Part shown: positions 3,604 to 28,886 of the stretch, piece by piece
Numbering within the stretch: position 1 is the first letter of the stretch
How the letters are laid out: each line of letters opens with the position of its first letter
From: Candidatus Omnitrophota bacterium
Lineage (GTDB): Bacteria > Omnitrophota > Omnitrophia > Omnitrophales > Aquincolibacteriaceae
Assembly (NCBI GenBank): GCA_022711115.1
Contig: JAKLFP010000001.1
Location: 389,183 to 453,182 of the forward strand
Direction of reading: 5' to 3'
Length of the DNA stretch: 64,000 bases
Translations under genes and position numbers: made by a program
The notes under the pieces: generated by a model
Databases searched by the model: none
What the model was told of the DNA's origin: nothing
Seen by the model: only the letters and a program-made list of their open reading frames with translations

Positions 3604-3610
3604 ATTCCAC

Positions 3611-7294: not shown

Positions 7295-7323
7295 GCTGCC
7301 ATTGCAAACATGGAATGTGATTG

Positions 7324-10858: not shown

Positions 10859-11009
10859 AGCTCTCTTTTCTGTAAAACGTTTTAATGAATTTTGGGGTTA
10901 TGCATTACAAAACAAATCTGAATCTCAGTCCAAACAAATCTTTCGAGAGTTAATTTTAAAGAATATTTAACAAATATCAATCGCCAGGGGATTTACGGCA
11001 AAAATCTAA

Positions 11010-11948: not shown

Positions 11949-11959
11949 GAACGTTTGCC

Positions 11960-13319: not shown

Positions 13320-14522
13320 TTATGTTTTTGTTGCCGTGACCGTTTCATCATGAAACGGTTTCACTTTATTTAAAACGGATCTGCAAAAAGCAAGAACCGG
13401 TTCTTTGATGGTTTCCGCATAGACGCTATTTCCAATCTCGTTAAAGTGCCCTTCGGGAAAATAGATATCTTTAATTTGGTAACCCTTTTTTTCCATCAGG
13501 GACCTTATCTTGTCCGTGGGATCAAAAAAATAAACCCCTTGTTGTTGCGGGAAAGTTTCAGCTAACAGGGATTTTTTAAAATGTTCGCAAACACCGGGAC
13601 GTTTTTCGTTTTTGGCCATCGCTTTTGAATTCGGCGTCCAGACAATCAACAGCGGTATATGATTTTCCCGGCAAAAAAGGGTCAGGCGACGCACATGCGC
13701 CAAACTGACGCGAGCGGCATCTTGAGGAGTCCTGGTGCTTGCAGGGTATAGGCTACCGGGTGTTTCAGCTGTCACATTTGGGAAACAAAACTTTTTGATC
13801 AAGACAAACAAGTGAGAATGCTGATTGAACCATGGATAAGGCGTACGCGTAAGAAGATATCTCTTAAAAGGAGTAAAGACTTTTTCATCTTTTAATATGA
13901 CTTGGCCGTCCCTGACGGCAAACGAGCAAGCTCGATAGTTAGGATTTTGATTAATATTATCAGCGATATCGTTTGAATTCATGAAATAGATGACGGCATC
14001 AACATGAAACATTTTTTGAAAACGTTTTAAAGCCTTGAAGACATGTCCCGTGGAATAAGTGCTGACCCCCCCATTTAAAAGCTGGATATCTCCTGTCTCC
14101 TTCAAGACTTGGGCTTTAAGGATGCCGTAAAAAGAATTATTGATTTCGACGCCCCAGCCGAATAAAAAGGAGTCCCCTAATGCCAGTATTTTTTTTACAT
14201 GAGCTGCGGGGTTTACGCTCTGATCCATCCTTAAGCCATATTCGTTAGTATCAACCTGGAATGAATAATATTCTTTCGTTAGAACGTCATCATACTTCTG
14301 GTTCGGGCCGTTCACTTGCCCCAAATCTTCATGCGGCATTAAATAGGGCCTCACAAGGGATTGGGGAGAAAACTTTCTAACGATCCATTCCCCCAAGAGA
14401 ATGGACAGGGTGAGAGATAACAGCAGTAAAAAAGAATTCGATGCAAAAACCAGCCCTCGAGATTTCTTTTCAAGAAAATTCATGTTAAACATGATGCGGT
14501 GATTCAAAAAATTTAGAAGCAA
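13320..14522 (-). CDS. membrane-anchored SGNH/GDSL hydrolase-family protein (paralog 2)
   Basis: N-terminal TM; LGDSFLFGWGV; C-terminal EGHFNEIGN. Confidence 0.6.
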   Translation of the reverse strand: MLLNFLNHRIMFNMNFLEKKSRGLVFASNSFLLLLSLTLSILLGEWIVRKFSPQSLVRPYLMPHEDLGQVNGPNQKYDDVLTKEYYSFQVDTNEYGLRMDQSVNPAAHVKKILALGDSFLFGWGVEINNSFYGILKAQVLKETGDIQLLNGGVSTYSTGHVFKALKRFQKMFHVDAVIYFMNSNDIADNINQNPNYRACSFAVRDGQVILKDEKVFTPFKRYLLTRTPYPWFNQHSHLFVLIKKFCFPNVTAETPGSLYPASTRTPQDAARVSLAHVRRLTLFCRENHIPLLIVWTPNSKAMAKNEKRPGVCEHFKKSLLAETFPQQQGVYFFDPTDKIRSLMEKKGYQIKDIYFPEGHFNEIGNSVYAETIKEPVLAFCRSVLNKVKPFHDETVTATKT

Positions 14523-14720
14523 AAAACATGCCGGGGGGAGTCTCCATGAAAGTTATCTCCGCTTTTTTAGGTAATAATAGAGCGCCTGAACAAAGAAGGT
14601 TTTTCATCTTTTTTGATCTTTATCAAAGCGCCTTCAATAGACTGCTTTTAATTTTTTCCCGCTTCATATAATATACGGCGTGTATATTTTCTTTTGATAA
14701 AGAGCGGGCAATAAAACTTT

Positions 14721-16508
14721 TTGAGTAAAAAAACACTTTATTCCACTATGAAGATATCGGCAGAAAAAGAAAAAAAGCTGTCTCCTTTATTTCTCATTAT
14801 TCTTCTTGGAATAGGGCTCTATGCGATGATTCTCAATGCCCCGTTTTGTTTTGATGACAACGCAAAGATCGTCAGCAATTCGGCTTTAAAAGATACGGCG
14901 ACTTTCGAGCAAATATGGAAAATCCCGTATGCAAAAACAAACTTTCTTACCTTCGTCACTTTTGCCCTTAATTACCGTTGGGGGGGCATGAACCCCTTCG
15001 GATTCCATCTTGTGAATATCGTCTTGCATCTTCTCAGCGTCTTTTTAAGTTACCGGCTGGTGCTTATTTTCTTTTCCTGTCCCGCCTTCAGCTTATCCCC
15101 CTTGAGCGCATGGAAAAAATCTTTTGCTCTTATCGCGGCGCTCATCTTCCTATGTCACCCCCTTCAAACCCAGTCCGTCACGTATGTTTGGGCGCGTTCG
15201 GAAATATTATCTGCCATCTTTTGTTTTTTGTCCTTGCTGTTTTATATGAACGGGCGGCTAAAAAATAGGAAGCCGTTGCTTTTTCTTTCTTTCTTTTTGT
15301 TTTTGATCGGCATCTTCGCAAGAGGAAATATGATCATTTTCCCGCTTCTTGTTTTTTTAATCGAGATCACATTTTTCAGATCAACACCTCTGAAAATCAC
15401 TCGTCTATCTTCAAAAGGATGGCTGTTTCTATTGGGTTTAGGCCTATCGGCGATTCTTGTCGGAGTCTTTTTTTCGCAACTGGTGAACTTTTTTAACATC
15501 TCTTACCTTTTCAAGAACAGTTATATGCCCCGCACCCATTACCTCTTAACACAGTTTAGTGTTATCGTGCAGTACATCAAACTTTGTATTATCCCGCTGG
15601 GGCAAAATCTCGATTATGATTTCCCTTTTTCAAACTCTCTGTTCGAATTCCGGACTTTCGGTTCTCTTATGATATTGCTTTCTATTTTGGTTTCGGCCGT
15701 GCTCTGTTTTAAAAAGCATAGATTGATATCCTTTGGAATTTTCTGGTTTTTTATATGCCTCCTGCCGGTTTCCAGCATTATTCCCCTTTCAACCGTAATC
15801 TCTGAAAGTCGCGTCTACTTGCCGCTATTTGGCTTTTCTGTGCTTGTGACGGCTTTCATGTTTTCTTTCATCGCGGAAAAAAAGAAGGTGGTCCGGATTG
15901 CTTTTGTCGTCATCATGGGCTTAAGCGCCCTGACGATTGCCAGAAATTCTGTCTGGCGCTCATCGATCGCCATTATGGAAGACACTGTGAGAAAATCGCC
16001 TTTAAGCGGCCGGGCGCAGGCTAATTTGGGGGTGGCTTACAGCATGGCCGGACTTTATGACAAGGCCCTTGACAGTTATCGTACAGCCTTTGAGTTGGGT
16101 AGTAAAAGAGGCATGGATCGAAAATACTTGGCCCAAATTCTTATTAATTTAAGCTCTATTTACGGGTTGAAGGGCGATTATGAACGTGAAATTCACTATT
16201 GCCAGCAGGCGATTACTTATAATTCCAAAAATCCTCAAGCCTATAGCAATCTAGGACATGCGTATGCGTTAACCGGAGATTATGCCAAGGCGATAACATA
16301 CGGGCGTAAAGCCGTCGAAATTTCCCCGACTTTTGTTGAAGGATTGACAAACCTCGGTGTCGTTTACGGAAGAATGGGAAAGTACCGCGAAGCGGCCGAA
16401 CAGTTTGAGCGCGCGTTAAAACTTGACCGTGAGAATGAAAAGGCAAAACAGAATTTGCTTCTGGCGCAGCAATTGCTTAAAAATTCAAACGAACCTGCCC
16501 CTTTTTAA
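14721..16508 (+). CDS. TMTC/PMT-like GT-C membrane glycosyltransferase (DUF1736-type) with C-terminal TPR repeats
   Basis: Multi-TM N-terminal region with APFCFDDNAKIV and HLVNIVLHLL motifs shared with 39908-41716; C-terminal TPR repeats (AYSNLGHAYALTGDYAKAI...). Confidence 0.55.
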   Translation: MSKKTLYSTMKISAEKEKKLSPLFLIILLGIGLYAMILNAPFCFDDNAKIVSNSALKDTATFEQIWKIPYAKTNFLTFVTFALNYRWGGMNPFGFHLVNIVLHLLSVFLSYRLVLIFFSCPAFSLSPLSAWKKSFALIAALIFLCHPLQTQSVTYVWARSEILSAIFCFLSLLFYMNGRLKNRKPLLFLSFFLFLIGIFARGNMIIFPLLVFLIEITFFRSTPLKITRLSSKGWLFLLGLGLSAILVGVFFSQLVNFFNISYLFKNSYMPRTHYLLTQFSVIVQYIKLCIIPLGQNLDYDFPFSNSLFEFRTFGSLMILLSILVSAVLCFKKHRLISFGIFWFFICLLPVSSIIPLSTVISESRVYLPLFGFSVLVTAFMFSFIAEKKKVVRIAFVVIMGLSALTIARNSVWRSSIAIMEDTVRKSPLSGRAQANLGVAYSMAGLYDKALDSYRTAFELGSKRGMDRKYLAQILINLSSIYGLKGDYEREIHYCQQAITYNSKNPQAYSNLGHAYALTGDYAKAITYGRKAVEISPTFVEGLTNLGVVYGRMGKYREAAEQFERALKLDRENEKAKQNLLLAQQLLKNSNEPAPF

Positions 16509-16595: not shown

Positions 16596-16650
16596 GCGGA
16601 TTGTTCCTATCGGCAATCCGCGGGGCGGAGGGGAATCGTATTTTTTATTT
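16596..16650. terminator. possible bidirectional terminator hairpin (GCGGATTG...CAATCCGC) followed by a T-rich run
   Basis: Perfect 8-bp inverted repeat between convergent genes 14721-16508 (+) and 16649-17110 (-). Confidence 0.35.
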
Positions 16651-17110
16651 AAACGTTCTGCAGTAAGCCTTGGAGTTTTGCGGGGTGCCGTACATTTTTG
16701 AGAATGATAACAACGCCCGCCGTACCGTACGGGACCAGGAATACATTTCCGTATCTCAGTATCTTTCCCCAAAAATCCTGCTTTATCTGGACTGAAACGA
16801 TCTGTGCCCGTTCGATTTCCACGTTTTTTTTAAAAAATAATCCGGACGTCAATGTCACCTTTTTGGAACTGATTTCATATGTCGCGGTTACCGCCGCATA
16901 GAGCGCTATAACAAGCCAGCTTGGAAGAAATAAAACAAAAAACAGACCTAGGCTCATGAGTCCGATGTACGGGTCGAAAAAGAACGGCGCGATACCCAGA
17001 AGAACAAAAACAAAAAAGCATCCCGGCAGACGGGCCGCTATCGTCGGCTGTCCTTTCCATATTTTTTTATTCACATCTTGCTCCATCGATAAAACCCTTT
17101 CGCTGGACAT
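16649..17110 (-). CDS. membrane-flanked bacterial PH-domain protein (DUF304/bPH_2-like)
   Basis: Two N-terminal TM helices then a beta-rich segment ...YEISSKKVTLTSGLFFKKNVEIERAQIVSVQIKQDFWGKILRYGNV. Confidence 0.45.
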   Translation of the reverse strand: MSSERVLSMEQDVNKKIWKGQPTIAARLPGCFFVFVLLGIAPFFFDPYIGLMSLGLFFVLFLPSWLVIALYAAVTATYEISSKKVTLTSGLFFKKNVEIERAQIVSVQIKQDFWGKILRYGNVFLVPYGTAGVVIILKNVRHPAKLQGLLQNV

Positions 17111-17127: not shown

Positions 17128-17964
17128 TTAGGGCGTTCCCTTTTCCGCCTTGATTTCCTCCGCTGTGTTGCCGCCAAGCGATCTTAAAAAAGCAACAAGT
17201 TCTTGCTCTCCGAAACGTTCGGCGATATCGAGCGCCGTGTTTCCGTCGGCATTGATCGCGTTGATATCCGCGCCCTTGGAAACAAGGTATTGAATCCCCT
17301 CAAAGTCCTTGCTGTACGCATGCCAAATCAAAGGCGTATTATCTTTAACGCTTCTGGCGTTCACGTCTGCGCCGAAATCTGCCAAAACCTTCATGATGTC
17401 AAGCTCCTGATTAAAAATCGGCGTCATATTGAATTCCTCGTTCCTCGCGTGAACATCAGCACCTCGTCCAATCAAGAACTTCGCCGTTTCCGGATCTTTC
17501 ACCACATGCAGCACGCTTTCTCCGAATTCGTTTTTCGCTTTAATGCTGCCCCCTTGATTGAGGAGCCGGCGGACCTCATCCGTCTGATTGTTCCGTACCG
17601 CTTCGATCAGTTTAATATTCAAATCGGACGCGGACGTCTCCGCTGTTTGCGCTGGTTTTTTCAGGACCGCGGGGATGAAAAAGCTCATGAAGATCAGCCC
17701 CGAGGATAGAAGGACGCTTATCAGGATCAGCAGGATCCGCCAGCGTCCGAATTTGCCGCGGTAAATAAAGCGGCCGGCGATCAGTCCGAGGATCGGGATG
17801 ATCAAGGCGACCGGCCCTTCCGCGCCGCACGGGGCAACGGTCAGACACAGCAGGGCGTAGGTAAATACAAAAACGAGTATAACAACATGCAGAAGAAAAT
17901 AAAGAAATCCGACGATTTTAAAAACCATCGTTCTCAAACCCTCATTTTTATTTGATACAATCAC
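17128..17964 (-). CDS. ankyrin-repeat protein with N-terminal TM helices
   Basis: ANK repeats (NTPLIWHAYSKDFEGIQYLVSKGADINAINADGNTALDIAERFG). Confidence 0.6.
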   Translation of the reverse strand: MIVSNKNEGLRTMVFKIVGFLYFLLHVVILVFVFTYALLCLTVAPCGAEGPVALIIPILGLIAGRFIYRGKFGRWRILLILISVLLSSGLIFMSFFIPAVLKKPAQTAETSASDLNIKLIEAVRNNQTDEVRRLLNQGGSIKAKNEFGESVLHVVKDPETAKFLIGRGADVHARNEEFNMTPIFNQELDIMKVLADFGADVNARSVKDNTPLIWHAYSKDFEGIQYLVSKGADINAINADGNTALDIAERFGEQELVAFLRSLGGNTAEEIKAEKGTP

Positions 17965-18748
17965 ACGCTAAAAAACCTTCTTTTCCCTCCGTCACGCGGT
18001 AAAGGTGGCCGGCAGCGGCCTGGGTAAATAAATGGCCTTGGGGCAGGCATTGCCTGAAAACATCGAGTGCTTTTTTATAATACGCCGCCGCCTTAGCGGG
18101 TTGTCCCATGTCACGGTAAACCTGGCCCATGTTGTGATAGGATCCGCCCAGGTCTGCGTCGGGCTTAGGGTTTTTTTGCCGTACCGCAAGCGCCTGCTCG
18201 TGGAACTGTAATGCTTTTTGGAGTTTGCCCTGTTTACGGTAGAGTTCGCCAAGGTCATGCAGCACCCGGATGGTTTCGAGATGCGTCCGGCCAAGCAGTT
18301 TTTCCCGGACGGTGTAAACGCGGTTAAATTCGCTTTCTGCTTTTTCGTACTGGTGATTGAACAGATGCAAAATGGCCAAGTTGCTTAGTGTCTGTGCCGT
18401 ATCCAAATGATCCTTTCCTAAGGATTTTTCGCGAATGGTCAGAGCTTGGTTAAATAAAGGTTCTGCGACAATGTATTTCTCCTGATAAAAATAAGCCGTT
18501 GCGAGATTATGCAGGATCTGCGCCCGCAGAAGGTTTGCGGGCATTTTCTGGCGCTCCCCTGCCTTCAATGCCTCGAGAAATTCTATCGAAGCCAAGGGAT
18601 AATCATGCTTCTCATAAGAACGGACGCCTCTTTGGTTGAGGTCGGCCACAGAGCTCCATGGATTCTCCGAGGTCATCGATTGGGAGGACATCCCGACAAA
18701 GGTCAAGACCGCCATACCAAGAAGAAAAATCCGCCGCTTCATATTCAT
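17948..18748 (-). CDS. secreted TPR-repeat protein
   Basis: Signal peptide MNMKRRIFLLGMAVLTFVGMSS; repeated TPR units (ATAYFYQEKY..., LSNLAILHLFNHQYEKAE...). Confidence 0.6.
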   Translation of the reverse strand: MNMKRRIFLLGMAVLTFVGMSSQSMTSENPWSSVADLNQRGVRSYEKHDYPLASIEFLEALKAGERQKMPANLLRAQILHNLATAYFYQEKYIVAEPLFNQALTIREKSLGKDHLDTAQTLSNLAILHLFNHQYEKAESEFNRVYTVREKLLGRTHLETIRVLHDLGELYRKQGKLQKALQFHEQALAVRQKNPKPDADLGGSYHNMGQVYRDMGQPAKAAAYYKKALDVFRQCLPQGHLFTQAAAGHLYRVTEGKEGFLACDCIK

Positions 18749-18799: not shown

Positions 18800-19759
18800 T
18801 TATCTTTTGTTACTTTCAAAAGACATTTGCTCTTGGTATTGTTCACGACGTTTCTGCTTTTGTTGACTCACCGTCTGGCCGTAGGTCGGAGAAAAAAGAT
18901 CTTGATCAATCGCCTGACCCGCTGGCGCCTGTCCCGGTTTGTAGGGAACTCCCATTAGATGGATGCTTTCTTGCTGTGCGGGAGGATGGTTGGAAGATGA
19001 AGCTGGAACAGCAGAAACGCCCAAGAGGGTGATCGTCTTCTCGCCGGAAGACGCTTGTTCCGGAAGCCCTGTGCCGGGATGACCAAAGCCTGGAACAGCC
19101 ATGGAGGGCGGGAAAGGCATTTCTTCGTTTTTGGGTTGCAGCTTAAAAGTGACTTTTAATCCTTTTCTTGGCTGGGTTACTTTATGGATGGGGACCGCCT
19201 TGACCTGCTTCCCGTTAATGTCTGCCACCTTCCATGTGCCAACCTCCATTTCCATGCCGGCGGCTGTTACATATTTAAGTTCCGCAATATCATCCACGGC
19301 CGGCACCCGGTTCCCTTTCAACTCGATCAGAACATCCTCACCAAAAACCCCTGTAACTTCTCCTACTACGTCGTTTTTAGCCGGCACCGAAGTCTTTTGG
19401 GACGATGAAAACGGCTGGCTTTGAGAATTGACAAGCTGGGGCTGCCAGTTAAACGCGGGAACGATATTCACTTTCATTCCCTGACTGGGTCGCATATTCA
19501 AGCTGACAATCTCAAGTGTGTACCGGTTGCCGTTGATCGCGACGATCTTAAAGCGGCCGATGAGCATCTCCATAACTCCGGCCGTGTAGCTCAATTCGAT
19601 CTCGCTCTCAACGGGGAAACTTTCCGGTCCGTCAGTCTCAAGAATCACACTCTTGGAATTTTCTTCAAGTACGGTGCCGGTCATCGGACCGGCAGCAAAA
19701 AGCGGGAGTGCCTTCAAAACAAACAAGGCTGTTATAAAAACAAAAAAGATTTTTTTCAT
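18800..19759 (-). CDS. secreted hypothetical protein with internal tandem domain duplication
   Basis: Signal peptide; two similar ~90-aa modules (SYTAGVMEMLIGRFKIVAINGNRYTLEIV / VTAAGMEMEVGTWKVADINGKQVKAV); Q/P-rich C-terminus. Confidence 0.5.
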   Translation of the reverse strand: MKKIFFVFITALFVLKALPLFAAGPMTGTVLEENSKSVILETDGPESFPVESEIELSYTAGVMEMLIGRFKIVAINGNRYTLEIVSLNMRPSQGMKVNIVPAFNWQPQLVNSQSQPFSSSQKTSVPAKNDVVGEVTGVFGEDVLIELKGNRVPAVDDIAELKYVTAAGMEMEVGTWKVADINGKQVKAVPIHKVTQPRKGLKVTFKLQPKNEEMPFPPSMAVPGFGHPGTGLPEQASSGEKTITLLGVSAVPASSSNHPPAQQESIHLMGVPYKPGQAPAGQAIDQDLFSPTYGQTVSQQKQKRREQYQEQMSFESNKR

Positions 19760-19908
19760 AGATTTCCTTTAAAGTCGTGACAAAAAAATCCAAGAAATGA
19801 TTTTTTAGGCCGCGTCATGGTACGCGATTTCTTTTTATCATGATTTTTCCTGGCCTCGAAAAACTGGCGAACCCAAAAAGCCATTGTTTCAATGAGCGGG
19901 CAGCTCTC

Positions 19909-22900
19909 TTAATTATTAAAGGTAAAGCCGCCCCGGTTACGGTCACCCCAGATACCTTGGAAATTGTTATCGGGACTGCTGCCTCCGGAATGGCTCCCCG
20001 AAGAGGCGCTTCCGGACCTGAATTGCTCCAGAACAGTTTGTCCTCCGCCGCCGCTGCTTACACCCTTACTTCCTGTAGCGCATACGCCCACCAACTCGAT
20101 GGCGCCCGGGCAAATAGCTCCACCGCCCGTTGTCCCGCCGCCACCGCCTGTCGTGCCGCCTCCGAAATTAAACCCTCCGCCTCCTCCGGTATTGACCGGA
20201 GGCTTCCAACCCCCCTGGCTGACGATCTGCGCCTGATTCCGGATATTCTGCAGCATCATGTTGTTGAATTGTTGTTGCTGTTGTTGCTGCTGTTCCCATT
20301 GCTGCTGTTGCTGCTGCCGTTGCCATTCCATCTGCTGCATATCCTGTTGGAACTGAAAATCGTTTTGCTGCTGTTGCTGCTGCAGGGCTGCCGTTGCCGC
20401 TTGCATGGCCGCCAAAAGGTCCTGCTGACCTTGCGGCGCCCACGCGCAATTCATCGCCTGAGCAACCAGTGCATGCGCGGCATCGAATTGCTGGCTGTCG
20501 AGAAGCCCGTAAAAATTATTCTGGTACGAAACGCAGTCGATGCAGGCGGTATTGCTCGTGTTCCAAGTCAGGCCGAGCTGACAGACGCATGCCGGCCGGC
20601 CTTGTGGGTCATAACCGGGCTGCGTTCCAGGGACGGTGCATTGGATCATCGGCCGTCCAAAATACTGGACGATCACACTGCTCCCGGCCTGGGCCTGCGT
20701 GTTAGGACCCGGGCTTTGCGACCGGATCATATACGCGTCCTCCGCGCGCTGGGCGTCGCCGAGCGTCCTGGCGTCCGGATTAAAACCGGCTTGCTGCAAA
20801 ACCCCCATCGCTTGTTCAAATTGCATACCGATCACGTTTGGCACGGGGATCATCTGACCTTCTCCCGGCTGTCCGCCCTGGATCGGAGAATTCATCAGGT
20901 CTTCACCGAGCGTCACGCAAAAAGCCGCGTCCACGGCCGCGTCTTCAACGCGCTTCATATAATCCGCGGCCATCTGCCCGAGGTATTCGACGTTCTCAAC
21001 CGTTTTAAGCATCTGAGAGACCGTACTGCCTTCGGCTTCACCAAAAAGCTGCGTCCATTCGGCGTGCTGCGTCTTAATCTTGGAAAGGTTCGTTTTCATT
21101 TCTGTGATCTGCGTTTTCAAAGGGGCGATCACGGCCGCGGTTTCGTCAGGGCATTTGACCACGTTCTGGGCCGCGCCCTCGACCCGGCTTTGCATCTCTT
21201 CGATCTTGTCCAAGGTTTCCTTCCCTTCAGGGGTATCCTTGATGGGCTGCAGATTTTTCCTGAGATCCGCGGCCACGGTGTCGATCTTCGCGAGGATCGG
21301 TGCGATCGCGGCCACTTTTTCGCGCGCCGCGTTGACCTTCTCATCGGCTGTCGCTATCTTTTGTTCCAGCGCGTTCACTTTTGCGATCAGATTATCAAGC
21401 TCCTGAAAACCCTGGAGTTCCGTCCTTCCCGTTACCGCCTCATCGTAACCGCTCCGGACATTCTTGCTGTTGGTCTGCACGATCTGAAATTTTTCCCGCG
21501 CCTGAGAGAGCATCGGCCTGAGATCCGCTTCATCCGCCCTTACGGACTGCATGATCTTCTGCCGCTCTTCCTGGGATGTTGCGTATTTGATCGATTGCGC
21601 CTTCTCGCAGACGCGCACGCTGAGTTGTTCCATTTGCGATGCCGACGTGGCGAGAAATTTTGTTCCTTCTTCCGCGTCGTCCTGGATCCTGTTTATTTCC
21701 TGCGTGAGTTGTTTGACCCGCTGTGCCTTTATCTCCAGGTTCTTGGCTTTTGATTCGTAGGTCGCCACCTGGGATTTGATTTCCGCGAGCCCGGCCTGAA
21801 CCTCTTTGGTGATCACCGCGCAATCGTTGCAAAGCGCTCTCGCTTCGTTCGCGAGCGCTTCGGCCTGGGCCACAAGCTTCTCAAGCTCCCCAAGTTGATT
21901 CGATGTTCTCATATAATGCTGCTCGAATTCCGCGATCAGTTTATCAAAGGCTTCGTCATGGACCTTGTGCCGCTCGACCGCCAGGTCCTGGTCCGTCGGG
22001 CCCTTAGGCTGTAATTCTTTGTCGCGTTCCGAGGTGTCGGATTCCATGCCTACCGCGATCTGTAAAACCTCTCCCTGACTTGCCGGAATATCGCTTAACA
22101 CCTGCAGCCATGTGTCTCCGGGCTGGGCTTTACCGTTGACCAGTCGCCAAAGCTGCCGCCAAAGATCATGATGGGAAACACCGCCCAGCGTGGCTTGATC
22201 AAAACTTTTCGGATCGCTGTCCAGCGCCGAATCGGGGACATATTTGCGTTTGATCTCGGTCAGCTTTGCCGTCATGTCTTCTCTGATCTTCCCGGGCAGC
22301 TCCGCCCATTGGCCATAGGAAGTTTCGTCGCCCGAAGCTTTGCCCATCAAAAAATAGGGGCCGCTCAGGAGCCGCAGTTTGTCATCTTCTTTGGGATAAT
22401 TCCCGTACTGCTTTTCGGTCTCGTTCCTCGTGTCGCGGATCTTTTTGTAAGTTTTCAGGTATTGATCGATGATGCGCGTCTTTTCCTCAAAGACATCCCA
22501 GACATCCGCCTCGCCCATCATTTCCCGCTTGATCCCGCGGCTCATGTCCCAAAGCCAGACCAGCAGGTTCATGAAATCCCCGCCCGCTTCCTCCGTCAGC
22601 TTGTCCATCATCTGCTTTTTGATCCTGAGGTCTTCCGCGATCTTCTGGAGCTCCTCGAACATCTGGACGACCTGCCCGCTGATCTCCGCCTGTTCGGCCG
22701 CGCGCCGCTGTTCCAGGAGCTCAATCACGTGCTTCACGAATTCCAGCTTCACAACCTCCCATCGCGTGTACCACATGTCGGAAAAATGTTCCTTGAGTTT
22801 CGGCCCGACCAGTTCATGCTTCATCATTTCTTCCATCATCACAAGCCATGGGTCCTGCTCGGCCACTGTCTCACGCAGCATATCGTTGACCTTGAACCAG

Positions 22901-25458
22901 CCCGTGATCCCGTCAAGGGTGTACTCCATCTGTAGCCGCCGCTGCGCCTGAGGCAGTTTCAGCTGCGCGTACATTTCGCGGATCTGCCCCTGCTTTTTGT
23001 CAACAAACGCATCCAGATCGATCTCTTCGCCCTGATAGGTGACGGTGAGCAGTTTCCAGTTCGTCAGTTTGATCTTGTCGCCAACCGTTTCGACGTTAAG
23101 AAGCTTGAACTTCGCGTTTTCATAAAGATCGTCGATGAATTTGTCGACCTCCGTGCTCCAGTACATCTTCCATGTCTTCTCGCCCATGGATTCTCCGATG
23201 CTCTCGGCCACTCCAAGGAGCGCCACGGGAGGTATTAATGTTGTAAGTGTGTCCCAGCCGGCGGCCATGTATTTTCCCATATAAAGATTTGTCGCCGCGG
23301 AACCGAAAGGCACCCTCCGTTTGAAAAATTCACCCGCCAGGGCGCTCCATTCCCCCTGCCAGAAAAGGCCCACATACGCGGGGATTTCGTCGATCAAATT
23401 CATTGTGATTAAAATTTTGGAGGTTGCGCGGCCCGCGGCGCTGGAATTCATGGCGTCCCCGAAAAATTGGTTGGCGTCCTTAATTTTCTGGCGGACCAGG
23501 CTGTCCATAATGTACTTATTGACCCGCTCCGAGCGCCCGCGCCAAAGTTCTTCCTTGATATTGAGCCACTGGGTCCAGCCGTCGCTCAGCTTGCCTCCGG
23601 GCCGGTCCAGAAACTTCGCGACTTTGTCCGCCCAGCGGAACTCCTGAGCTCCCTGAATGTATCCGTCCCATTGAGTCTGCATCTCCCCGCGGAATTCCCC
23701 CATAAGCTTGTCATCAAGAACATCCAGCATCGTGTTGATCGTCTCAGGCATTGAAAGCAGTTTGGCCGCCGCGAGATTGATGGCTATCGGTTTTTTTGCT
23801 TTCAGCATGGAATCGATGAATTTATAGTCCTGCAGTCCCTGGACATCGAGCAGCTGAAATCCCCAGGTTTTCATGAACGATTTGTAGTCCCCGCGGAATT
23901 TCTCGAGCTGGCTCTTGAAGCCCGGGTCGATCTCCTTGATCCCCGCGATCTCGTCATTGAGCACGCGGGATTCGATCTCAATCATCTCATAAAGCTGGTT
24001 GAGCTCTTTCGCAATGCGTTTCGCTTCGGGATTATCCGGCGCTTTGGTCAGATCTTCCGGAGGCTGCGGCAGCCTGCCGATATCCGCGTTGAGCTTTTTC
24101 ATCTGCAGGTCAAATCCCTTGGCGACATTTTTCCACATGAGTTCCGAGCAGGAATTATAAAATTCCTTGATGATCGCCTCTTTGACTTCGATCTCGGGCT
24201 TGGATTGCCCGGTCTCATTCTCCGGCCCTAATTTCACATCAACCGGGAACGGTTTCCCGATCTCCTGGAAGTATTTCCGGATGATGTCGACCTGATTCAT
24301 CCCCTCAGCCCGTTTGTTCTCCTGCAGTAGTTTCGCGAAATCGGAGAGCGCTTTATTATCGGGTTCGGCGCCCGCCTCGCGGAGATATTTATTGCTCCGC
24401 TCAACATATTTTGTGGCCTTCATGAAACACTCGAGATCGGTGTAAACATTTTTCTTCACGATGTCGTGCTCGAAATGCCGGAGCATCTCGAGGCTCATAC
24501 CGGGCTCGACTTCCCATTTCAAGGCAATGAGATCGGCCATGCCGACCTTCGCGAACTTGGCGTCAAGCACCACCTGCGTCATCGCGTCATCCCCCAGGAC
24601 GATCTCGCCGATGGTTCCGTTATCGAGGTCCAGGATCTTGATCTTGGGTTTTTTATCCCGCTCTGTGGTGTACTTTCTGAAATTATCCTCGCCGTATTTC
24701 GAGCCGTGTTTAGCAACGTAAACCTCGTCCTTGCCCATCCCTTGCGGCGTGCACACAGTATCGAACTGTTCGGCTGTCAAATTCGTTCTTTGTTTGATGA
24801 AATCATCGAATTCCTGCTGCATGGCTACCGAAAGCTCAAGGTCGCCGCAGATGAGGGTAAAATCGATATCTCCGGCGAATTGCATCGCTTCAAGGGATTC
24901 GGTCGGCCAGCTCCCGATCTCTCCGAGGAACACTTTGAATTTATAACCGTTGATATTGTTCTTTCCTTTGAATTTCCGCGCCACATGTTCAATGCCTTCG
25001 AGCACGATCTGTCTTCGCCAGGAAAGAAGGTCCTTTTCGACTTTGGACCCTCCTTCCGCGTAGAGTTCGCCGAGAAAATATTTCAGCCCCTTCTGACCGG
25101 TCCTTCCCTGGTAGTCCCCGATCTCTTTTTTGACCTGCATCAGAAGGTGGCGGCGTTCGAGGCCATCCGGCATTTCCATGCGGGATAGTTCGTGATAGAA
25201 AGTTTCCGGCGTCATCGCGCCCGCGGCCACCTTTCGAAAATTCTCCGCGATCTTGATCTTGACATCGGAGTATTCCTGGAAAAGCTCGATCGGCGGGACC
25301 TGGAAAGAGTCTTTATCTTCCTGGTCCGGGTTATCGGGAGACGCCGCGAAAAGATCGCCGGAAGGAATCACTGCGATCAGAAATGCCAGGAAAGGGATAA
25401 GGGCTATTGCGAAGAATATTTTTTGCTGGTGACTGCTTTTCTGCAGGAGGCAACTCAT
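19909..25458 (-). CDS. giant (1849 aa) secreted/membrane-anchored protein: N-terminal TM/signal, long coiled-coil regions, PASTA-like domain, Cys-rich module, polyQ and Gly-rich C-terminal tail
   Basis: Single ORF with markedly higher GC than flanking DNA. PASTA-like VPNVIGMQFEQAMGVLQQAGFNP...IRSQSPGPNTQAQAGSSVIVQY. QQQQQ.. and GGGGG.. tracts at the C-terminus. N-terminal region contains IGSWPTESLEAMQFAGDIDF, a possible nucleotidyltransferase-like GS...DxD motif. Confidence 0.6.
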   Translation of the reverse strand: MSCLLQKSSHQQKIFFAIALIPFLAFLIAVIPSGDLFAASPDNPDQEDKDSFQVPPIELFQEYSDVKIKIAENFRKVAAGAMTPETFYHELSRMEMPDGLERRHLLMQVKKEIGDYQGRTGQKGLKYFLGELYAEGGSKVEKDLLSWRRQIVLEGIEHVARKFKGKNNINGYKFKVFLGEIGSWPTESLEAMQFAGDIDFTLICGDLELSVAMQQEFDDFIKQRTNLTAEQFDTVCTPQGMGKDEVYVAKHGSKYGEDNFRKYTTERDKKPKIKILDLDNGTIGEIVLGDDAMTQVVLDAKFAKVGMADLIALKWEVEPGMSLEMLRHFEHDIVKKNVYTDLECFMKATKYVERSNKYLREAGAEPDNKALSDFAKLLQENKRAEGMNQVDIIRKYFQEIGKPFPVDVKLGPENETGQSKPEIEVKEAIIKEFYNSCSELMWKNVAKGFDLQMKKLNADIGRLPQPPEDLTKAPDNPEAKRIAKELNQLYEMIEIESRVLNDEIAGIKEIDPGFKSQLEKFRGDYKSFMKTWGFQLLDVQGLQDYKFIDSMLKAKKPIAINLAAAKLLSMPETINTMLDVLDDKLMGEFRGEMQTQWDGYIQGAQEFRWADKVAKFLDRPGGKLSDGWTQWLNIKEELWRGRSERVNKYIMDSLVRQKIKDANQFFGDAMNSSAAGRATSKILITMNLIDEIPAYVGLFWQGEWSALAGEFFKRRVPFGSAATNLYMGKYMAAGWDTLTTLIPPVALLGVAESIGESMGEKTWKMYWSTEVDKFIDDLYENAKFKLLNVETVGDKIKLTNWKLLTVTYQGEEIDLDAFVDKKQGQIREMYAQLKLPQAQRRLQMEYTLDGITGWFKVNDMLRETVAEQDPWLVMMEEMMKHELVGPKLKEHFSDMWYTRWEVVKLEFVKHVIELLEQRRAAEQAEISGQVVQMFEELQKIAEDLRIKKQMMDKLTEEAGGDFMNLLVWLWDMSRGIKREMMGEADVWDVFEEKTRIIDQYLKTYKKIRDTRNETEKQYGNYPKEDDKLRLLSGPYFLMGKASGDETSYGQWAELPGKIREDMTAKLTEIKRKYVPDSALDSDPKSFDQATLGGVSHHDLWRQLWRLVNGKAQPGDTWLQVLSDIPASQGEVLQIAVGMESDTSERDKELQPKGPTDQDLAVERHKVHDEAFDKLIAEFEQHYMRTSNQLGELEKLVAQAEALANEARALCNDCAVITKEVQAGLAEIKSQVATYESKAKNLEIKAQRVKQLTQEINRIQDDAEEGTKFLATSASQMEQLSVRVCEKAQSIKYATSQEERQKIMQSVRADEADLRPMLSQAREKFQIVQTNSKNVRSGYDEAVTGRTELQGFQELDNLIAKVNALEQKIATADEKVNAAREKVAAIAPILAKIDTVAADLRKNLQPIKDTPEGKETLDKIEEMQSRVEGAAQNVVKCPDETAAVIAPLKTQITEMKTNLSKIKTQHAEWTQLFGEAEGSTVSQMLKTVENVEYLGQMAADYMKRVEDAAVDAAFCVTLGEDLMNSPIQGGQPGEGQMIPVPNVIGMQFEQAMGVLQQAGFNPDARTLGDAQRAEDAYMIRSQSPGPNTQAQAGSSVIVQYFGRPMIQCTVPGTQPGYDPQGRPACVCQLGLTWNTSNTACIDCVSYQNNFYGLLDSQQFDAAHALVAQAMNCAWAPQGQQDLLAAMQAATAALQQQQQQNDFQFQQDMQQMEWQRQQQQQQWEQQQQQQQQFNNMMLQNIRNQAQIVSQGGWKPPVNTGGGGGFNFGGGTTGGGGGTTGGGAICPGAIELVGVCATGSKGVSSGGGGQTVLEQFRSGSASSGSHSGGSSPDNNFQGIWGDRNRGGFTFNN

Positions 25459-26101: not shown

Positions 26102-27190
26102 TTATAAAACCCCCGCTTCACTTAAAGCCTTATGAAGCTGATGGGCAACAAAGTTATTGCCCTCTAAAGTCATGTGCCCTCTTCGGCCATAAAAAAAGGC
26201 GTCCAAAACTTCCGGGTTTGTTTTTATAATTCCAAAAAAAGGGACTGCCAGATCGACCACTTGAATTGTCTTATCATCAATGCCGCTCAGCACGGCGTCG
26301 ACAATGCTTAGCTCGTCTAAATTCGTGTCATGAGTGTATTGCACAAGAACGATGATGTGTTTCAGGCGATCTGTCGGAATCATGGCCCTGAGGTACCGGA
26401 ACATCAAATAACCGGTGGAAACAGCCTGATCCTGGGAATAGGCCTCGTCATCCCCCCACTTTTCCTGGAGCCAGTGGTCGGGAAAAGCGGTCTTCATGGC
26501 ATAGTGGAGAAAGGCGCTGTAGCCGAATATTTTTCGGGCCAACCAAAGACCGTCTTTCTCAGCGGGAAGTATGGGAACCGGAATATTTTTTGTAACAAGC
26601 CGGTCGCCTGAAAGTTCTATGTAGGGCTTTGCGACACCGTGTCTTTTAGACTGTCTGCAGCGAAGCACATCGTCGGCAATAAAGCTCAAGATCAGAATAT
26701 CCGGGTTGTAGACCCGGACCAATTGGCCGGCCCTGAGAAATATCTGATCAAGCCCGTATGCAAAAACACCGCCGTTCACGACCCGCTTTCCGGATATTTT
26801 TTCCAAAAGCGCCGGCCATGTCTCGCCATCCGATACGTCGGCCCCAAAGGTGAACGAATCGCCCACGGCCAAGATCGATACGGGACCGGAGGCTTCTTCG
26901 GCCTTACCGGTGCCGTTGGAACGAATACCATTTTTAAGGATGGTAACCGTCTTTCCCCACGAATTTTTATCCCCCGAGTAACCTTCTTGGGGGATCCACC
27001 CTAGATGGGAATCATATTGGCAGGGGTAGGAGGACTTCAGGATGTTTATATTTTGCTCCGCAAAATTCACAAAGGCATATTCCCCCTTGATGACGCGAGT
27101 GGCCAGCTCGAGTACTATGAAAACTACCAGCAGGGCAAGCGCGGAGATGAGCGGATTTATAAACGATATCTTCTTTTCAGAATTCATCAA
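26102..27190 (-). CDS. membrane-anchored SGNH/GDSL hydrolase-family protein (paralog 3)
   Basis: N-terminal TM; AVGDSFTFGADV; C-terminal RGHMTLEGN. Confidence 0.6.
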   Translation of the reverse strand: MMNSEKKISFINPLISALALLVVFIVLELATRVIKGEYAFVNFAEQNINILKSSYPCQYDSHLGWIPQEGYSGDKNSWGKTVTILKNGIRSNGTGKAEEASGPVSILAVGDSFTFGADVSDGETWPALLEKISGKRVVNGGVFAYGLDQIFLRAGQLVRVYNPDILILSFIADDVLRCRQSKRHGVAKPYIELSGDRLVTKNIPVPILPAEKDGLWLARKIFGYSAFLHYAMKTAFPDHWLQEKWGDDEAYSQDQAVSTGYLMFRYLRAMIPTDRLKHIIVLVQYTHDTNLDELSIVDAVLSGIDDKTIQVVDLAVPFFGIIKTNPEVLDAFFYGRRGHMTLEGNNFVAHQLHKALSEAGVL

Positions 27191-27448: not shown

Positions 27449-28453
27449 TTACTCGACAAGCCTTAACTTTTGCATGGTGGTGTTTATTTGAGAGTTCTCC
27501 CGGACAATAAAAGACGAAGACGTAGATTCTACAATCTCAGCCTGGATGCCGCGTGTACCCATAGCGCCAGTTAAATTGACGGAAAGAATCCGCAAGGCGA
27601 CAATGCTCACGATTGTATATTCGAAAAGACTTCCCTGCTCCACCACTGTTGTGTAAACGGGGTAGTAGGCGATCTTCCCGATCATGTCTGTAAGGTCTGA
27701 TAAAAGGGCCTGCCCCTTGCTTCCTGTTAAACCCGACGCTTGCAGAGACCCGCTCTCGGGAATGACAAAATCCTGATCGAAACCGCTTTCGATGTATTGC
27801 CGAAGTTCCGGGATATCGTTTGATCCTGAATCCAAATCCAGATATCCGAAATTGCCGGGACCTTTCGGCTCTAAAGACAGCGTGATGCGTTGGTTGACGT
27901 CAAAAGAGCCGTCCCCATCCTGATCCACGACGGATTTTAATACCGTAATTGGCATGAGGTGGCCGTTTGCTTTCACCCCCACGACACGTTGGTCCCGGGC
28001 CGCAACAGCACGACGAGAAAGCGCCATCTCTTCTTGCCCAAACATCTTCGCAAAAAACAACGCCACCTTTCCGGCCGGCACATTTTCATCCCTTGTCGCC
28101 CTGACCCTGCATGCATTAAAAGGAGTCTGATTTTCGTGAAATTTCTGGGCATCAAAGTCATAATTTCCCAGAATAACATTGTTGCTGATAAGCCCGACCG
28201 AAGCACTTCCCGCGGAATTTCTGCTGGCGAAGGACATCGCAATCCTATCTGCCTTATCTTTTTCAACTGAGAGGTCCACCATCACCGCTAAGGCTGCGGC
28301 ATCGGATGCGTTTTGCAATTCAGTTTGTGTAGCAATGAGATAACCCGCATCAATAGCCAGAGACATCATACAGAACATGGGTGTTGTAAAAATAAGCGTG
28401 GTCACCAAGGCGGTACCTTTTTGGGTCCTTAAAATTTGATTTAATTTGATCAT
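27449..28453 (-). CDS. TadG/TadE-like pseudopilin family protein (start adjusted to MIKLNQILR... at 28453 to avoid overlap with the upstream gene)
   Basis: KGTALVTTLIFTTPMFCMMSLAIDAGYLIATQTELQNASDAAALA resembles the TadE/TadG N-terminal region; remainder beta-rich. Confidence 0.5.
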   Translation of the reverse strand: MIKLNQILRTQKGTALVTTLIFTTPMFCMMSLAIDAGYLIATQTELQNASDAAALAVMVDLSVEKDKADRIAMSFASRNSAGSASVGLISNNVILGNYDFDAQKFHENQTPFNACRVRATRDENVPAGKVALFFAKMFGQEEMALSRRAVAARDQRVVGVKANGHLMPITVLKSVVDQDGDGSFDVNQRITLSLEPKGPGNFGYLDLDSGSNDIPELRQYIESGFDQDFVIPESGSLQASGLTGSKGQALLSDLTDMIGKIAYYPVYTTVVEQGSLFEYTIVSIVALRILSVNLTGAMGTRGIQAEIVESTSSSFIVRENSQINTTMQKLRLVE

Positions 28454-28457
28454 AAAG

Positions 28458-28886
28458 TCATCCTTCTTTCCGCATAACGGTGCTTGCACTAAGGGCATTG
28501 CCGGGAAAAATGAATGTCGGGATAATCGAATTAAAAGGAAGCGTTGCGGTAACTCTAACCCCCTCCATTCCATCCACATCAATAATCGATGCATTGATGA
28601 CTGCCCCTGCGCCAAGGTTTATGCTCGTCAAACTATATTTACAAGTACTGATTGCTGTTTTTACTGCCTTATCCCCGGAAATTTGCATGGCTCCAGTCCG
28701 GGCCCCTTCACGAACGGCTCTGTCGAGAACATGCTTGACACATATCGCCCGGCCCAAGTCGAACATGAATATCACCATTAGAATAATAATTGGAAGAACA
28801 AGCACAGATTCTACGAGTGCCTGACCGCACGAATTTCTTCTGAAAAACCCTCTTTTACCAGATGAATTGATAACTTCATTTTGCAT
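28458..28886 (-). CDS. TadE-like protein (Flp-pilus-associated pseudopilin family)
   Basis: GQALVESVLVLPIIILMVIFMFDLGRAI matches the TadE-like N-terminal signature. Confidence 0.6.
   Translation of the reverse strand: MQNEVINSSGKRGFFRRNSCGQALVESVLVLPIIILMVIFMFDLGRAICVKHVLDRAVREGARTGAMQISGDKAVKTAISTCKYSLTSINLGAGAVINASIIDVDGMEGVRVTATLPFNSIIPTFIFPGNALSASTVMRKEG

What the first reader, a model, noticed from the sequence alone, without database searches (positions are those of the whole stretch)
19909..25458. Giant 1849-aa protein: PASTA-like domain, long coiled coils, Cys-rich module, polyQ and polyG tail, possible N-terminal NTase-like motif
The architecture is N-terminal TM/signal, ~1400 aa that is mostly predicted coiled coil (E/K/Q-rich heptads), a PASTA-like beta-lactam/peptidoglycan-binding-type domain (VPNVIGMQ...SQSPGPNTQAQAGSSVIVQY) and a Cys-rich segment. 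It ends in a Q-rich and then G-rich low-complexity tail. This does not match a known family. The N-terminal region has a GS-x13-DID stretch reminiscent of nucleotidyltransferases. It could be a cell-envelope spanning fibre or sensor.
Basis: partly seen in the sequence, partly recalled or inferred. Interest (0 to 1): 0.7.

Follow-up and report, generated by a model that had tools for sequence, protein, structure and literature searches.

The report
Exported giant protein, nucleotidyltransferase-like head
This is a real 1849-residue exported protein of an Omnitrophota bacterium, from a rare undescribed family with an enzyme-like head (probably nucleotidyltransferase fold), a coiled-coil stalk and a peptidoglycan-binding tail; its function is unknown.

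Summary
The ORF at 19909-25458 (-) is real. It equals GenBank HOW58740.1, and the same protein occurs on four public contigs. Confirmed features: an N-terminal export signal, a PASTA domain above Pfam's cut-off, a Cys-rich module, Q-rich and G/S-rich tails, and the GS-x13-DID motif.

Coiled coil covers only about aa 1160-1525, not about 1400 aa.

Residues 40-1150 form a conserved, non-repetitive module that defines an unannotated family:
- 211 clusters at 50% identity among 1.84 billion proteins.
- 65 loci among 185,579 species genomes, scattered over many diderm phyla.
- Nearly always placed directly after an export signal and followed by variable binding domains.

The first 360 aa of the module model well (pLDDT 83). 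[quoted passage not shown] These residues are invariant or nearly so in 100 diverse members. No sequence or structure search reaches significance, so this is a probable new family of that superfamily, not a proven one.

Adjacent genes encode exported partner proteins: a 79-aa beta-domain, alone or fused to PDZ or Sel1 repeats, and Ank or TPR proteins.

My best reading is an extracytoplasmic head-stalk-anchor enzyme, possibly a toxin-like effector. The function remains untested.

The parts
19909..25458 (-). Gene for the 1849-aa protein (identical to GenBank HOW58740.1)
   Evidence: ORF list and translation. Exact match on four public contigs. GC3 is 0.68, the highest of the 34 ORFs measured across the window.
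25342..25458 (-). Export signal, aa 1-39: Sec-type signal peptide or signal anchor, with a possible cleavage site after LFA-A
   Evidence: Hydrophobic stretch at aa 11-41. 76 of 79 N-terminally complete family members have such a stretch just before the core. Cleavage was not tested.
24196..25284 (-). N-terminal domain, aa 59-421: predicted divergent Pol-beta-type nucleotidyltransferase fold plus helical lobes
   Evidence: AlphaFold2 model with mean pLDDT 83.3. Invariant residues in 100 members. Only weak matches to NTase-fold structures.
24859..24918 (-). Motif IGSWPTESLEAMQFAGDIDF, aa 181-200: hG[GS] followed by [DE]h[DE]h
   Evidence: G182, D197 and D199 are invariant in 100 of 100 members. 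In the model the motif lies at the end of strand 1 and the start of strand 2. Pattern definition from PMC2794190.
24757..24765 (-). F232-D233-T234: candidate third carboxylate (h[DE]h)
   Evidence: D233 is Asp in 99 of 100 members and Glu in one. It lies three residues before predicted strand 3.
22009..24195 (-). Conserved middle module, aa 422-1150: mostly helical with one small beta-sheet and no match to anything known
   Evidence: Collinear in all homologues. Invariant polar residues include D579, N663, E691, Y695, R715, D776, Y779, D869, Y1004, R1011 and D1044. The best-conserved block is aa 703-783, which contains the two most hydrophobic internal segments. The model here has low to medium confidence.
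20884..21981 (-). Coiled-coil stalk, about aa 1160-1525
   Evidence: Matches only to the coiled-coil arms of SMC, Rad50 and LmuB, far below their cut-offs. Pro and Gly make up 2-5% of residues in four of the five 63-residue windows. Homologues P0002-P0005 have an equivalent stretch.
20665..20847 (-). PASTA domain, aa 1538-1598
   Evidence: Pfam PF03793, E = 4.2e-7, 30.3 bits against a cut-off of 23.2. Conserved in position in the subfamily, and duplicated in some members.
20443..20646 (-). Cys-rich module, aa 1605-1672 (C1607, C1624, C1626, C1639, C1642, C1671)
   Evidence: The cysteines align with those of homologues from other phyla. The same unit is repeated several times in some members.
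20224..20433 (-). Q-rich stretch, aa 1676-1745
   Evidence: 33 Q in 70 residues. A Q-rich stretch is present at the same place in homologues.
19912..20223 (-). G/S-rich tail, aa 1746-1849, containing the loop C1783-x2-G-x3-L-x-G-x-C1793 (window 20080-20112)
   Evidence: Composition. The order Q-rich, then G/S-rich, then the Cys loop is conserved in the subfamily.
18800..19759 (-). Partner gene 1: exported 319-aa protein with two copies of a 79-aa beta-domain
   Evidence: No Pfam match. It has a signal peptide. The domain is found next to the giant gene in 11 loci, almost always on the same strand. In other loci it is fused to PDZ or Sel1 repeats.
17948..18748 (-). Partner gene 2: TPR protein with a signal-like N-terminus
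   Evidence: Pfam TPR_12, E = 3.8e-58. N-terminus shown. Exported Sel1 or HEAT repeat proteins hold this position in other loci.
17128..17964 (-). Partner gene 3: membrane-anchored ankyrin-repeat protein
   Evidence: Pfam Ank_2, E = 1.2e-26. It is 30-41% identical to the Ank proteins next to the giant gene in L001, L002, L005 and L012. It has three N-terminal hydrophobic segments here, versus one or two such segments in the homologues.
16649..17110 (-). Last gene of the same-strand run: bPH_2 membrane protein. Whether it belongs to the cassette is uncertain.
   Evidence: Pfam bPH_2, E = 3.3e-12. Two hydrophobic segments. It was not found next to the giant gene in other loci.

Best explanation
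The gene encodes a Sec-exported protein with a head, a stalk and an anchor. It works outside the cytoplasm together with exported adaptor proteins.

Shown:
- An export signal is followed at once by a conserved module of about 1100 aa. This module defines a rare, undescribed family.
- Behind the module, family members carry different binding domains. This protein has a coiled-coil stalk, one PASTA domain, a Cys-rich module and a Q-rich and G-rich tail. Others have PKD, discoidin, VWA or Ig-like domains.
- The neighbouring genes encode extracytoplasmic beta-domain, PDZ, Sel1, Ank or TPR proteins.

Inferred from predicted fold and invariant residues:
- The first 360 aa of the module are a divergent Pol-beta-type nucleotidyltransferase domain with a complete metal-binding triad (G182-S183, D197, D199, D233) and a conserved basic cluster (R327, H328, K347, K350, R354). 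The head is therefore a catalyst and not just a scaffold.

Inferred, weaker:
- The PASTA and Cys-rich tail fixes the protein to peptidoglycan, and the stalk holds the head at a distance.

Mechanism I think most likely, about one chance in three: the protein is built like an AB toxin or effector. The variable C-terminus binds the target surface. The conserved helical middle module, with its two moderately hydrophobic and highly conserved segments, delivers the head. The head then uses the target cell's NTP to nucleotidylate a substrate.

Almost as likely: the same machine stays in the producer's own envelope.
For: Family and export:
- There are 13 homologues in 5.8 billion clustered proteins, all sharing aa 40-1190.
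- A profile search finds 211 clusters at 50% identity, all long proteins where complete.
- The core starts at a median position of 47, and 76 of 79 members have a hydrophobic leader.

Catalytic head:
- The model has pLDDT 83.3, with helix 139-162, strand 176-181, I-G-S at 181-183, a short helix, strand 199-204 beginning at D197-I-D199-F, helix 207-225, F-D233-T, strand 236-239 and helix 250-261.
- This is the topology and motif placement that defines the fold (PMC2794190).
- The motif residues are invariant or nearly so (D233 in 99 of 100) in diverse members.
- A canonical NTP_transf_2 protein in the same window shows the same local pattern, YLTGGFVTGECFYGLSDIDLIVI.

Modular tail:
- PASTA is above the Pfam cut-off.
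- Other members carry VWA, PKD or discoidin domains.
- The tail architecture is conserved across phyla.

Partners:
-.

Hints of horizontal transfer:
- GC3 is 0.68 against 0.29-0.59 for the other ORFs measured in the window.
- The distribution is patchy over Omnitrophota, Desulfobacterota, Acidobacteria, Proteobacteria, Planctomycetota, Kiritimatiellae and Lentisphaeria, with two or three copies in some genomes.
Against: - The fold call rests on a predicted model. I could not inspect its coordinates, so I could not check that the three carboxylates lie close together.
- An exported NTase has no obvious NTP supply.
- For the toxin reading: no dedicated secretion or delivery genes recur in the neighbourhoods, and no known toxin or immunity family matches.
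- The partners are all extracytoplasmic. That suits a resident envelope complex at least as well as a toxin.
- The carriers include free-living chemolithotrophs and a phototroph with no known antagonistic lifestyle.
Confidence: 0.45

Rival explanations
1. The protein is a resident envelope complex of the producer. It would be anchored in or near the inner membrane by its uncleaved leader. The coiled coil would span the periplasm, and the PASTA and Cys-rich tail would hold on to the cell's own peptidoglycan. The head and middle module would act on an envelope substrate or sense its state, helped by the PDZ, Sel1, Ank and TPR adaptors.
For: - The leader of this member has a long hydrophobic core of about 20-28 residues, which could be a signal anchor.
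- All partner proteins carry signal peptides, or one to three N-terminal hydrophobic segments; with one or three, as here, the repeat domain would sit outside the cytoplasm.
- PDZ and Sel1 proteins are typical periplasmic adaptors (the typicality is my own knowledge).
- PASTA is a peptidoglycan-related module (its function is my own knowledge).
- No secretion-system genes are conserved nearby.
Against: - Most homologues have ordinary short leaders with Ala-x-Ala-type cleavage sites.
- Other family members carry discoidin, PKD, VWA and Ig-like arrays, which are typical of secreted or surface proteins.
- The periplasm lacks NTP, so the catalytic signature would need a different donor.
- The family is rare, patchy and compositionally foreign here. 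That is unusual for a core envelope component.
Confidence: 0.3
2. The protein is a surface adhesin or matrix protein. Its conserved N-terminal module would be structural, for example an assembly or oligomerisation platform, and the NTase-like signature would be a relic without catalysis.
For: - The variable C-terminal arrays of PKD, discoidin, VWA and Ig-like domains resemble adhesins.
- No significant similarity to any enzyme was found.
Against: - Relic active sites drift. Here G182, D197, D199, T237, R327, H328, K350 and R354 are invariant, and D233 and K347 nearly so (99 of 100), in sequences that otherwise share only about 30-40% identity.
- About 25 more polar residues are invariant in the middle module.
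- In adhesins the conserved part is usually the anchor or secretion domain, and no such domain is detected.
Confidence: 0.1
3. The ORF is an artefact or belongs to a known family: an assembly chimera, a fusion of several genes, or an SMC/Rad50-like protein.
For: - The gene is very long and has a low-complexity tail.
- There are weak matches to SMC, Rad50 and LmuB models.
Against: - The identical protein occurs on four contigs held by several public sources.
- GC3 is uniform along the gene.
- Homologues from other phyla are collinear from end to end.
- The SMC and Rad50 matches score 17-22 bits against cut-offs of 567-1087 and cover only the coiled-coil arms. No ATPase head is present.
Confidence: 0.02

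Closest known systems
Pol-beta-type nucleotidyltransferase superfamily (minimal NTases such as MNT/HI0073, aminoglycoside nucleotidyltransferase ANT, CD-NTases)
   Same: [quoted passage not shown] These proteins are the recurring weak structural matches.
   Different: No significant sequence, profile or structure match was found. The domain sits behind an export signal and is fused to a 730-aa conserved module, a stalk and binding domains. As far as I know, known members work in the cytoplasm or inside a host cell.
PASTA-domain proteins (class B penicillin-binding proteins such as PBP2x, and Ser/Thr kinases such as PknB/PrkC)
   Same: One PASTA domain above the Pfam cut-off lies in an extracytoplasmic part of the protein.
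   Different: There is no transpeptidase or kinase domain. The host is a diderm Omnitrophota bacterium. The PASTA domain lies near the C-terminus after a coiled coil and is followed by a Cys-rich module.
Large AB-type toxins with an N-terminal enzyme, a central delivery region and C-terminal receptor-binding repeats (large clostridial toxins TcdA/TcdB). This is an analogy from my own knowledge.
   Same: The order of parts is the same: a conserved enzyme-like head, a large conserved mostly helical region containing the most hydrophobic internal segments, and a variable binding tail.
   Different: No glucosyltransferase, cysteine-protease or CROP domains are detected. This protein has a Sec leader. 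The resemblance is in architecture only, and no homology was found.
Periplasm-spanning tethers such as TolA (N-terminal membrane anchor, long helical domain, C-terminal binding domain). This is an analogy from my own knowledge.
   Same: It has an N-terminal hydrophobic anchor or signal, a long helical stalk and a C-terminal domain that would bind an envelope layer.
   Different: The 1100-aa conserved module with catalytic-type invariant residues has no counterpart in TolA, and there is no sequence similarity.
Giant genes of Omnitrophota (bioRxiv 10.1101/2023.11.21.568195)
   Same: Same phylum. Both are long exported proteins thought to act on other cells' walls.
   Different: By its abstract, that work concerns proteins comparable to or larger than the ~40,000-aa Titin. 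Its text mentions neither PASTA, nucleotidyltransferase, ankyrin nor coiled coil. This protein has 1849 aa, and its family is spread over many phyla.

Membership tests
Pol-beta-type nucleotidyltransferase fold superfamily | [quoted passage not shown] | tested here: met
   The AlphaFold2 model (pLDDT 83.3) gives helix 139-162, strand 176-181, short helix 189-191, strand 199-204, helix 207-225, strand 236-239 and helix 250-261. This is a prediction, not an experimental structure.
Pol-beta-type nucleotidyltransferase fold superfamily | hG[GS] after strand 1 | tested here: met
   I181-G182-S183 follow strand 1 directly. G182 is invariant in 100 of 100 members. Position 183 is S in most members; G and K also occur in the sequences read.
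Pol-beta-type nucleotidyltransferase fold superfamily | [DE]h[DE]h on strand 2 | tested here: met
   D197-I198-D199-F200 lie at the start of strand 2. Both Asp are invariant in 100 of 100 members.
Pol-beta-type nucleotidyltransferase fold superfamily | h[DE]h on strand 3 (third carboxylate) | tested here: inconclusive
   F232-D233-T234 fits the pattern, with Asp in 99 of 100 members and Glu in one. It lies three residues before the predicted strand, and the following region (about aa 242-254) has low confidence. I could not measure distances in the model.
Pol-beta-type nucleotidyltransferase fold superfamily | Significant similarity to an established member, by sequence, profile or structure | tested here: not met
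Pol-beta-type nucleotidyltransferase fold superfamily | Transfer of a nucleoside monophosphate from an NTP to a hydroxyl acceptor | not testable with these tools
   Needs biochemistry.
PASTA domain (PF03793) | Score above Pfam's gathering cut-off | tested here: met
   30.3 bits against 23.2, E = 4.2e-7, aa 1538-1598, covering profile positions 2-61 of 64.
PASTA domain (PF03793) | Binding of peptidoglycan fragments or beta-lactams | not testable with these tools
   Needs a binding assay.
SMC / Rad50 / LmuB | ABC-type ATPase head halves at both ends of the coiled coil, and a score above the family cut-off | tested here: not met
   Scores are 17-22 bits against cut-offs of 567-1087. The matches lie only in aa 1162-1477, against the coiled-coil arms of the models.
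Polymorphic toxin systems (PMC3482391) | Conserved N-terminal trafficking domain, variable C-terminal toxin domain, adjacent cognate immunity gene | tested here: not met
   Here the enzyme-like domain is N-terminal and conserved, and the C-terminus consists of binding modules. No known trafficking, toxin or immunity family matches. Ank and HEAT repeat proteins are listed as immunity proteins in that paper, but the ones here are extracytoplasmic.
Autotransporter, S-layer or known adhesin families | Beta-barrel translocator, SLH domain or another known anchor or secretion domain | tested here: not met
   Pfam and NCBIfam detect none in this protein. A true autotransporter in the same window is detected easily.

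The most novel reading that the evidence does not exclude
The family is a previously unrecognised class of giant Sec-exported enzymes whose catalytic head is a nucleotidyltransferase working outside the producer's cytoplasm. One possibility is a new AB-type toxin or effector family with its own 730-aa delivery module and exchangeable receptor-binding tails. The other is the first resident extracytoplasmic NTase system of diderm bacteria, using a so far unknown donor.
Probability: 0.3. Interest if true: 0.8.

Novelty: new variant of a known kind. Interest (0 to 1): 0.6.

Why it matters
If the head is an active nucleotidyltransferase, this would be a new branch of a well-studied enzyme superfamily in an unexpected place and format. 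It would be exported, mounted on a stalk, and aimed by interchangeable binding domains. The family occurs in many environmental diderm phyla and has no annotation at all.

It raises a concrete and testable question: what does an NTase do where there is no NTP? The answer would be either a new toxin-delivery design or a new kind of envelope chemistry.

Three cultured carriers make experiments possible: Zhengella mangrovi X9-2-2, Zhengella sp. ZM62 and Blastochloris sulfoviridis DSM 729. This removes the need to work with uncultured Omnitrophota.

At the least, the result defines a new domain family of about 1100 aa, a 79-aa partner domain and a conserved gene cassette.

Tried and rejected
- Foldseek on the whole 1161-aa core model (pLDDT 62.8) returned only long helical proteins at E > 0.1, which I treat as noise.
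- Sequence searches of the whole protein, the core profile and the N-domain profile against PDB gave only a polyQ match to a huntingtin fusion, or nothing.
- PADLOC gave only coiled-coil and repeat-type matches, so this is not a known defence system.
- A Pfam scan of 29 N-domains at E <= 10 found no recurring enzyme family.
- hhalign of the N-domain profile against a canonical NTP_transf_2 protein of the same window gave no signal.
- I tried to collect PDB NTase sequences through that protein, but got too few to build a profile.
- The afdb50 fold library was not available.
- A second word-indexed homologue search with the alignment added only seven sequences.
- A search with the beta-domain partner found only four unnamed relatives.
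- Literature searches for exported NTase-fold proteins, or for this architecture, found nothing relevant.
- A crude 3.5-residue periodicity scan did not separate coiled coil from other helices, so I did not use it.
- The promoter and terminator scan of the cassette found no more sites than shuffled sequence.
- I considered terpene-synthase-like metal motifs for D579-x2-D582-D583. I dropped the idea because the spacing fits neither DDxxD nor DxDD (my own knowledge).
Full report

The minus-strand ORF 19909-25458 begins with ATG and encodes 1849 aa. The protein is identical to GenBank HOW58740.1, 'PASTA domain-containing protein [Candidatus Omnitrophota bacterium]'. It occurs on four contigs held by NCBI, JGI, ENA and Logan, the longest 521 kb.

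Third-position GC is 0.65-0.70 in all four parts of the gene. Homologues from other phyla are collinear over the full length. An assembly chimera can therefore be dismissed.

The listed features are present:
- a hydrophobic leader at aa 11-41;
- PASTA at aa 1538-1598, above Pfam's cut-off;
- six cysteines in aa 1607-1671;
- a stretch with 33 Q in 70 residues;
- a tail with 34 G and 12 S in 104 residues;
- IGS-x13-DIDF at aa 181-200.

**2.

The protein is not about 1400 aa of coiled coil. Matches to SMC, Rad50 and LmuB models are restricted to aa 1162-1477. They score 17-22 bits against cut-offs of 567-1087. So the coiled coil is a stalk of about 360 aa.

Residues 40-1150 are something else: a conserved module containing strands, loops and many invariant polar residues.

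**3. A family defined by the N-terminal 1100 aa.**

Only 13 relatives turned up among 5.8 billion clustered proteins, at 27-38% identity. All share aa 40-1190. The closest also share the stalk and tail. Others continue with VWA, PKD, discoidin or Ig-like domains.

A profile of the core was searched exhaustively against 1.84 billion representatives. It finds 211 clusters at E <= 0.001, of which 144 reach E <= 1e-30. Those with a complete core have a median length of about 1950 aa.

The core starts at a median position of 47. In 76 of 79 N-terminally complete members it follows a hydrophobic leader.

A scan of one genome per species (185,579 species) found 65 loci. They lie in:
- Omnitrophota;
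- several orders of Desulfobacterota;
- Acidobacteria;
- alpha-, beta-, gamma- and zeta-proteobacteria;
- Planctomycetota including Scalindua;
- Kiritimatiellae, Lentisphaeria and one Bacteroidota genome.

Some genomes hold two or three copies. The three cultured carriers are Zhengella mangrovi X9-2-2, Zhengella sp. ZM62 and Blastochloris sulfoviridis DSM 729.

None of the members that carry a name is called anything but hypothetical, PASTA-, discoidin- or TPR-containing. Pfam, NCBIfam, PADLOC and PDB sequence searches give nothing for the core.

**4. The head looks like a nucleotidyltransferase.**

In 100 diverse members, G182, D197, D199, T237, V246, P319, R327, H328, K350 and R354 are invariant. 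D233, E324 and K347 are conserved in 99 of 100.

An AlphaFold2 model of aa 59-421, built from 29 sequences, has a mean pLDDT of 83.3. Its elements run in this order:
- helix 139-162;
- strand 176-181, ending in I-G-S;
- a short helix;
- strand 199-204, beginning with D197-I-D199-F;
- helix 207-225;
- F-D233-T, followed by strand 236-239;
- helix 250-261.

[quoted passage not shown] A canonical Pfam NTP_transf_2 protein elsewhere in the window shows the same local pattern, YLTGGFVTGECFYGLSDIDLIVI.

- Foldseek lists ANT, CdnG, pol lambda, pol mu, TdT and DncV.

I read this as a probable, very divergent new family of the superfamily. Four of its defining features are met or nearly met. The criterion 'significant similarity to a known member' was tested and not met.

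**5. The rest of the protein.**

Aa 422-1150 is mostly helical with one small sheet (low to medium confidence). It holds about 25 further invariant polar residues.

The best-conserved block of the whole protein is aa 703-783 (FFKRRVPFGS...TLIPPVALLG). It contains the two most hydrophobic internal segments, with Kyte-Doolittle values of about 1.3-1.4. That is too low for classical membrane helices.

After the stalk, the order of parts is conserved in relatives from Desulfobacterota and other phyla:
- PASTA;
- the Cys module;
- a helical stretch bounded by two cysteines;
- the Q-rich stretch;
- the G/S-rich stretch;
- the loop C-x2-G-x3-L-x-G-x-C.

The low-complexity tail is therefore a selected feature, not noise.

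**6. Gene neighbourhood.**

Four genes follow the giant gene on the same strand:
- an exported protein with two copies of a 79-aa beta-domain (18800-19759);
- a TPR protein (17948-18748);
- a membrane-anchored ankyrin protein (17128-17964);
- a bPH_2 membrane protein (16649-17110).

The beta-domain occurs next to the giant gene in 11 loci, almost always on the same strand. It stands alone, or is fused to PDZ or to Sel1 repeats.

Ank homologues at 30-41% identity are adjacent in four other loci. Exported Sel1 or HEAT proteins fill the position elsewhere. All these partners carry a signal peptide or N-terminal hydrophobic segments, one or three in most, which would place them outside the cytoplasm.

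The cassette belongs to the subfamily that has the stalk and PASTA-type tail. It is not universal: in the closest orthologue (L007, 75% identity) the downstream genes differ. No secretion-system genes recur.

**7. Context in the window.**

The window is chromosomal and close to the origin, with dnaA, dnaN, gyrB, gyrA and serS. It is otherwise dominated by a surface-glycan gene region, an autotransporter and a TadG-like gene. These neighbours are not conserved around homologues.

The giant gene has the highest GC3 of the ORFs measured in the window, 0.68 against 0.29-0.59. Together with the patchy phylogenetic spread, this suggests acquisition by horizontal transfer.

**8. How it most likely works.**

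Shown:
- an exported modular protein with a conserved N-terminal machine, a stalk and an exchangeable binding tail;
- extracytoplasmic partners.

Inferred:
- the head is a metal-dependent nucleotidyl- or phospho-transferase;
- the tail of this member binds peptidoglycan.

The main difficulty is that an exported NTase has no obvious nucleotide donor. Two readings remain:
- (a) An AB-toxin-like effector, about 0.3-0.35. The tail binds a target cell. The conserved middle module delivers the head, which uses the target's NTP. This explains the conserved head with a variable tail, the rarity, the multiple copies and the foreign codon composition.
- (b) A resident envelope complex, about 0.3. The protein would be anchored by its leader, span the periplasm through the stalk, and hold its own peptidoglycan through PASTA. 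This explains the extracytoplasmic PDZ, Sel1, Ank and TPR partners and the lack of secretion genes.

A purely structural adhesin with a relic active site is unlikely, given the strict invariance of the catalytic-type residues. The artefact and SMC-like readings are refuted.

**9. Comparison with what is known, and novelty.**

The closest known kind is the Pol-beta NTase superfamily, for the head only, and the PASTA family, for one small domain.

The overall layout recalls large AB toxins or TolA-like tethers. That is analogy only; no homology was found. It is not one of the published Omnitrophota giant genes.

I rate it a new variant of a known kind: a new, unannotated family that probably belongs to a known enzyme superfamily, in an unprecedented exported, stalked and modular format.

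The interest is moderate to high. The signal is strong and the question is testable in cultured carriers, but the function is still open.

Noticed in passing
window 54107-63429: A cluster of origin-proximal housekeeping genes, all on the minus strand: dnaA (62062-63429), dnaN (60822-61922), gyrB (57938-60463), gyrA (55391-57901) and serS (54107-55378). The window is therefore chromosomal and probably next to oriC.
   Followed up: partly
window 1233-16508 and 29396-53766: A very large surface-glycan gene region. It holds many GT2 and GT4 glycosyltransferases, an ABC-2 exporter pair (46702-48252), a sulfotransferase (44957-45589) and a fusion of GT2 with radical SAM/SPASM (43065-44966). It also holds further radical SAM/SPASM proteins, methyltransferases and GDSL-like proteins.
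   Followed up: partly
window 3611-5284 and 7324-8871 (both minus strand): Two proteins of 515-557 aa with a canonical Pfam NTP_transf_2 domain at the N-terminus lie inside the glycan region. They are unrelated in sequence to the head of the giant protein.
   Followed up: partly
window 33172-37812 (-): A second long gene encodes a 1546-aa autotransporter with five PATR repeats and a C-terminal beta-barrel. Its GC content is also raised, with GC2 at 0.55.
   Followed up: no
window 27449-28615 (-) and 26102-27190 (-): A TadE/G-like pilus-assembly protein and a GDSL-like protein lie just upstream of the giant gene. They are not conserved next to homologues.
   Followed up: partly
window, whole: Codon composition varies strongly within the window. 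GC3 is 0.29-0.30 for dnaA and dnaN, 0.54-0.57 for gyrA and gyrB, 0.34-0.49 for most of the glycan genes measured (two reach 0.50-0.52) and 0.68 for the giant gene.
   Followed up: no
window 19840-21753 (+): A 637-aa antisense ORF lies almost wholly inside the giant gene, overlapping its C-terminal part. It is probably a by-product of the GC3-rich coding strand.
   Followed up: no
L003 6475-7650 (-) and 12796-15561 (+): In an Arenicellales genome the giant homologue lacks a PASTA domain, and a separate 921-aa PASTA protein follows it. An upstream FGE-sulfatase-domain protein carries the same 79-aa beta-domain as the partner gene.
   Followed up: partly
L005 13517-14107 (-): A Macro-domain protein lies two genes from the giant homologue, beside the Ank partner. 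This was seen in one locus only.
   Followed up: no
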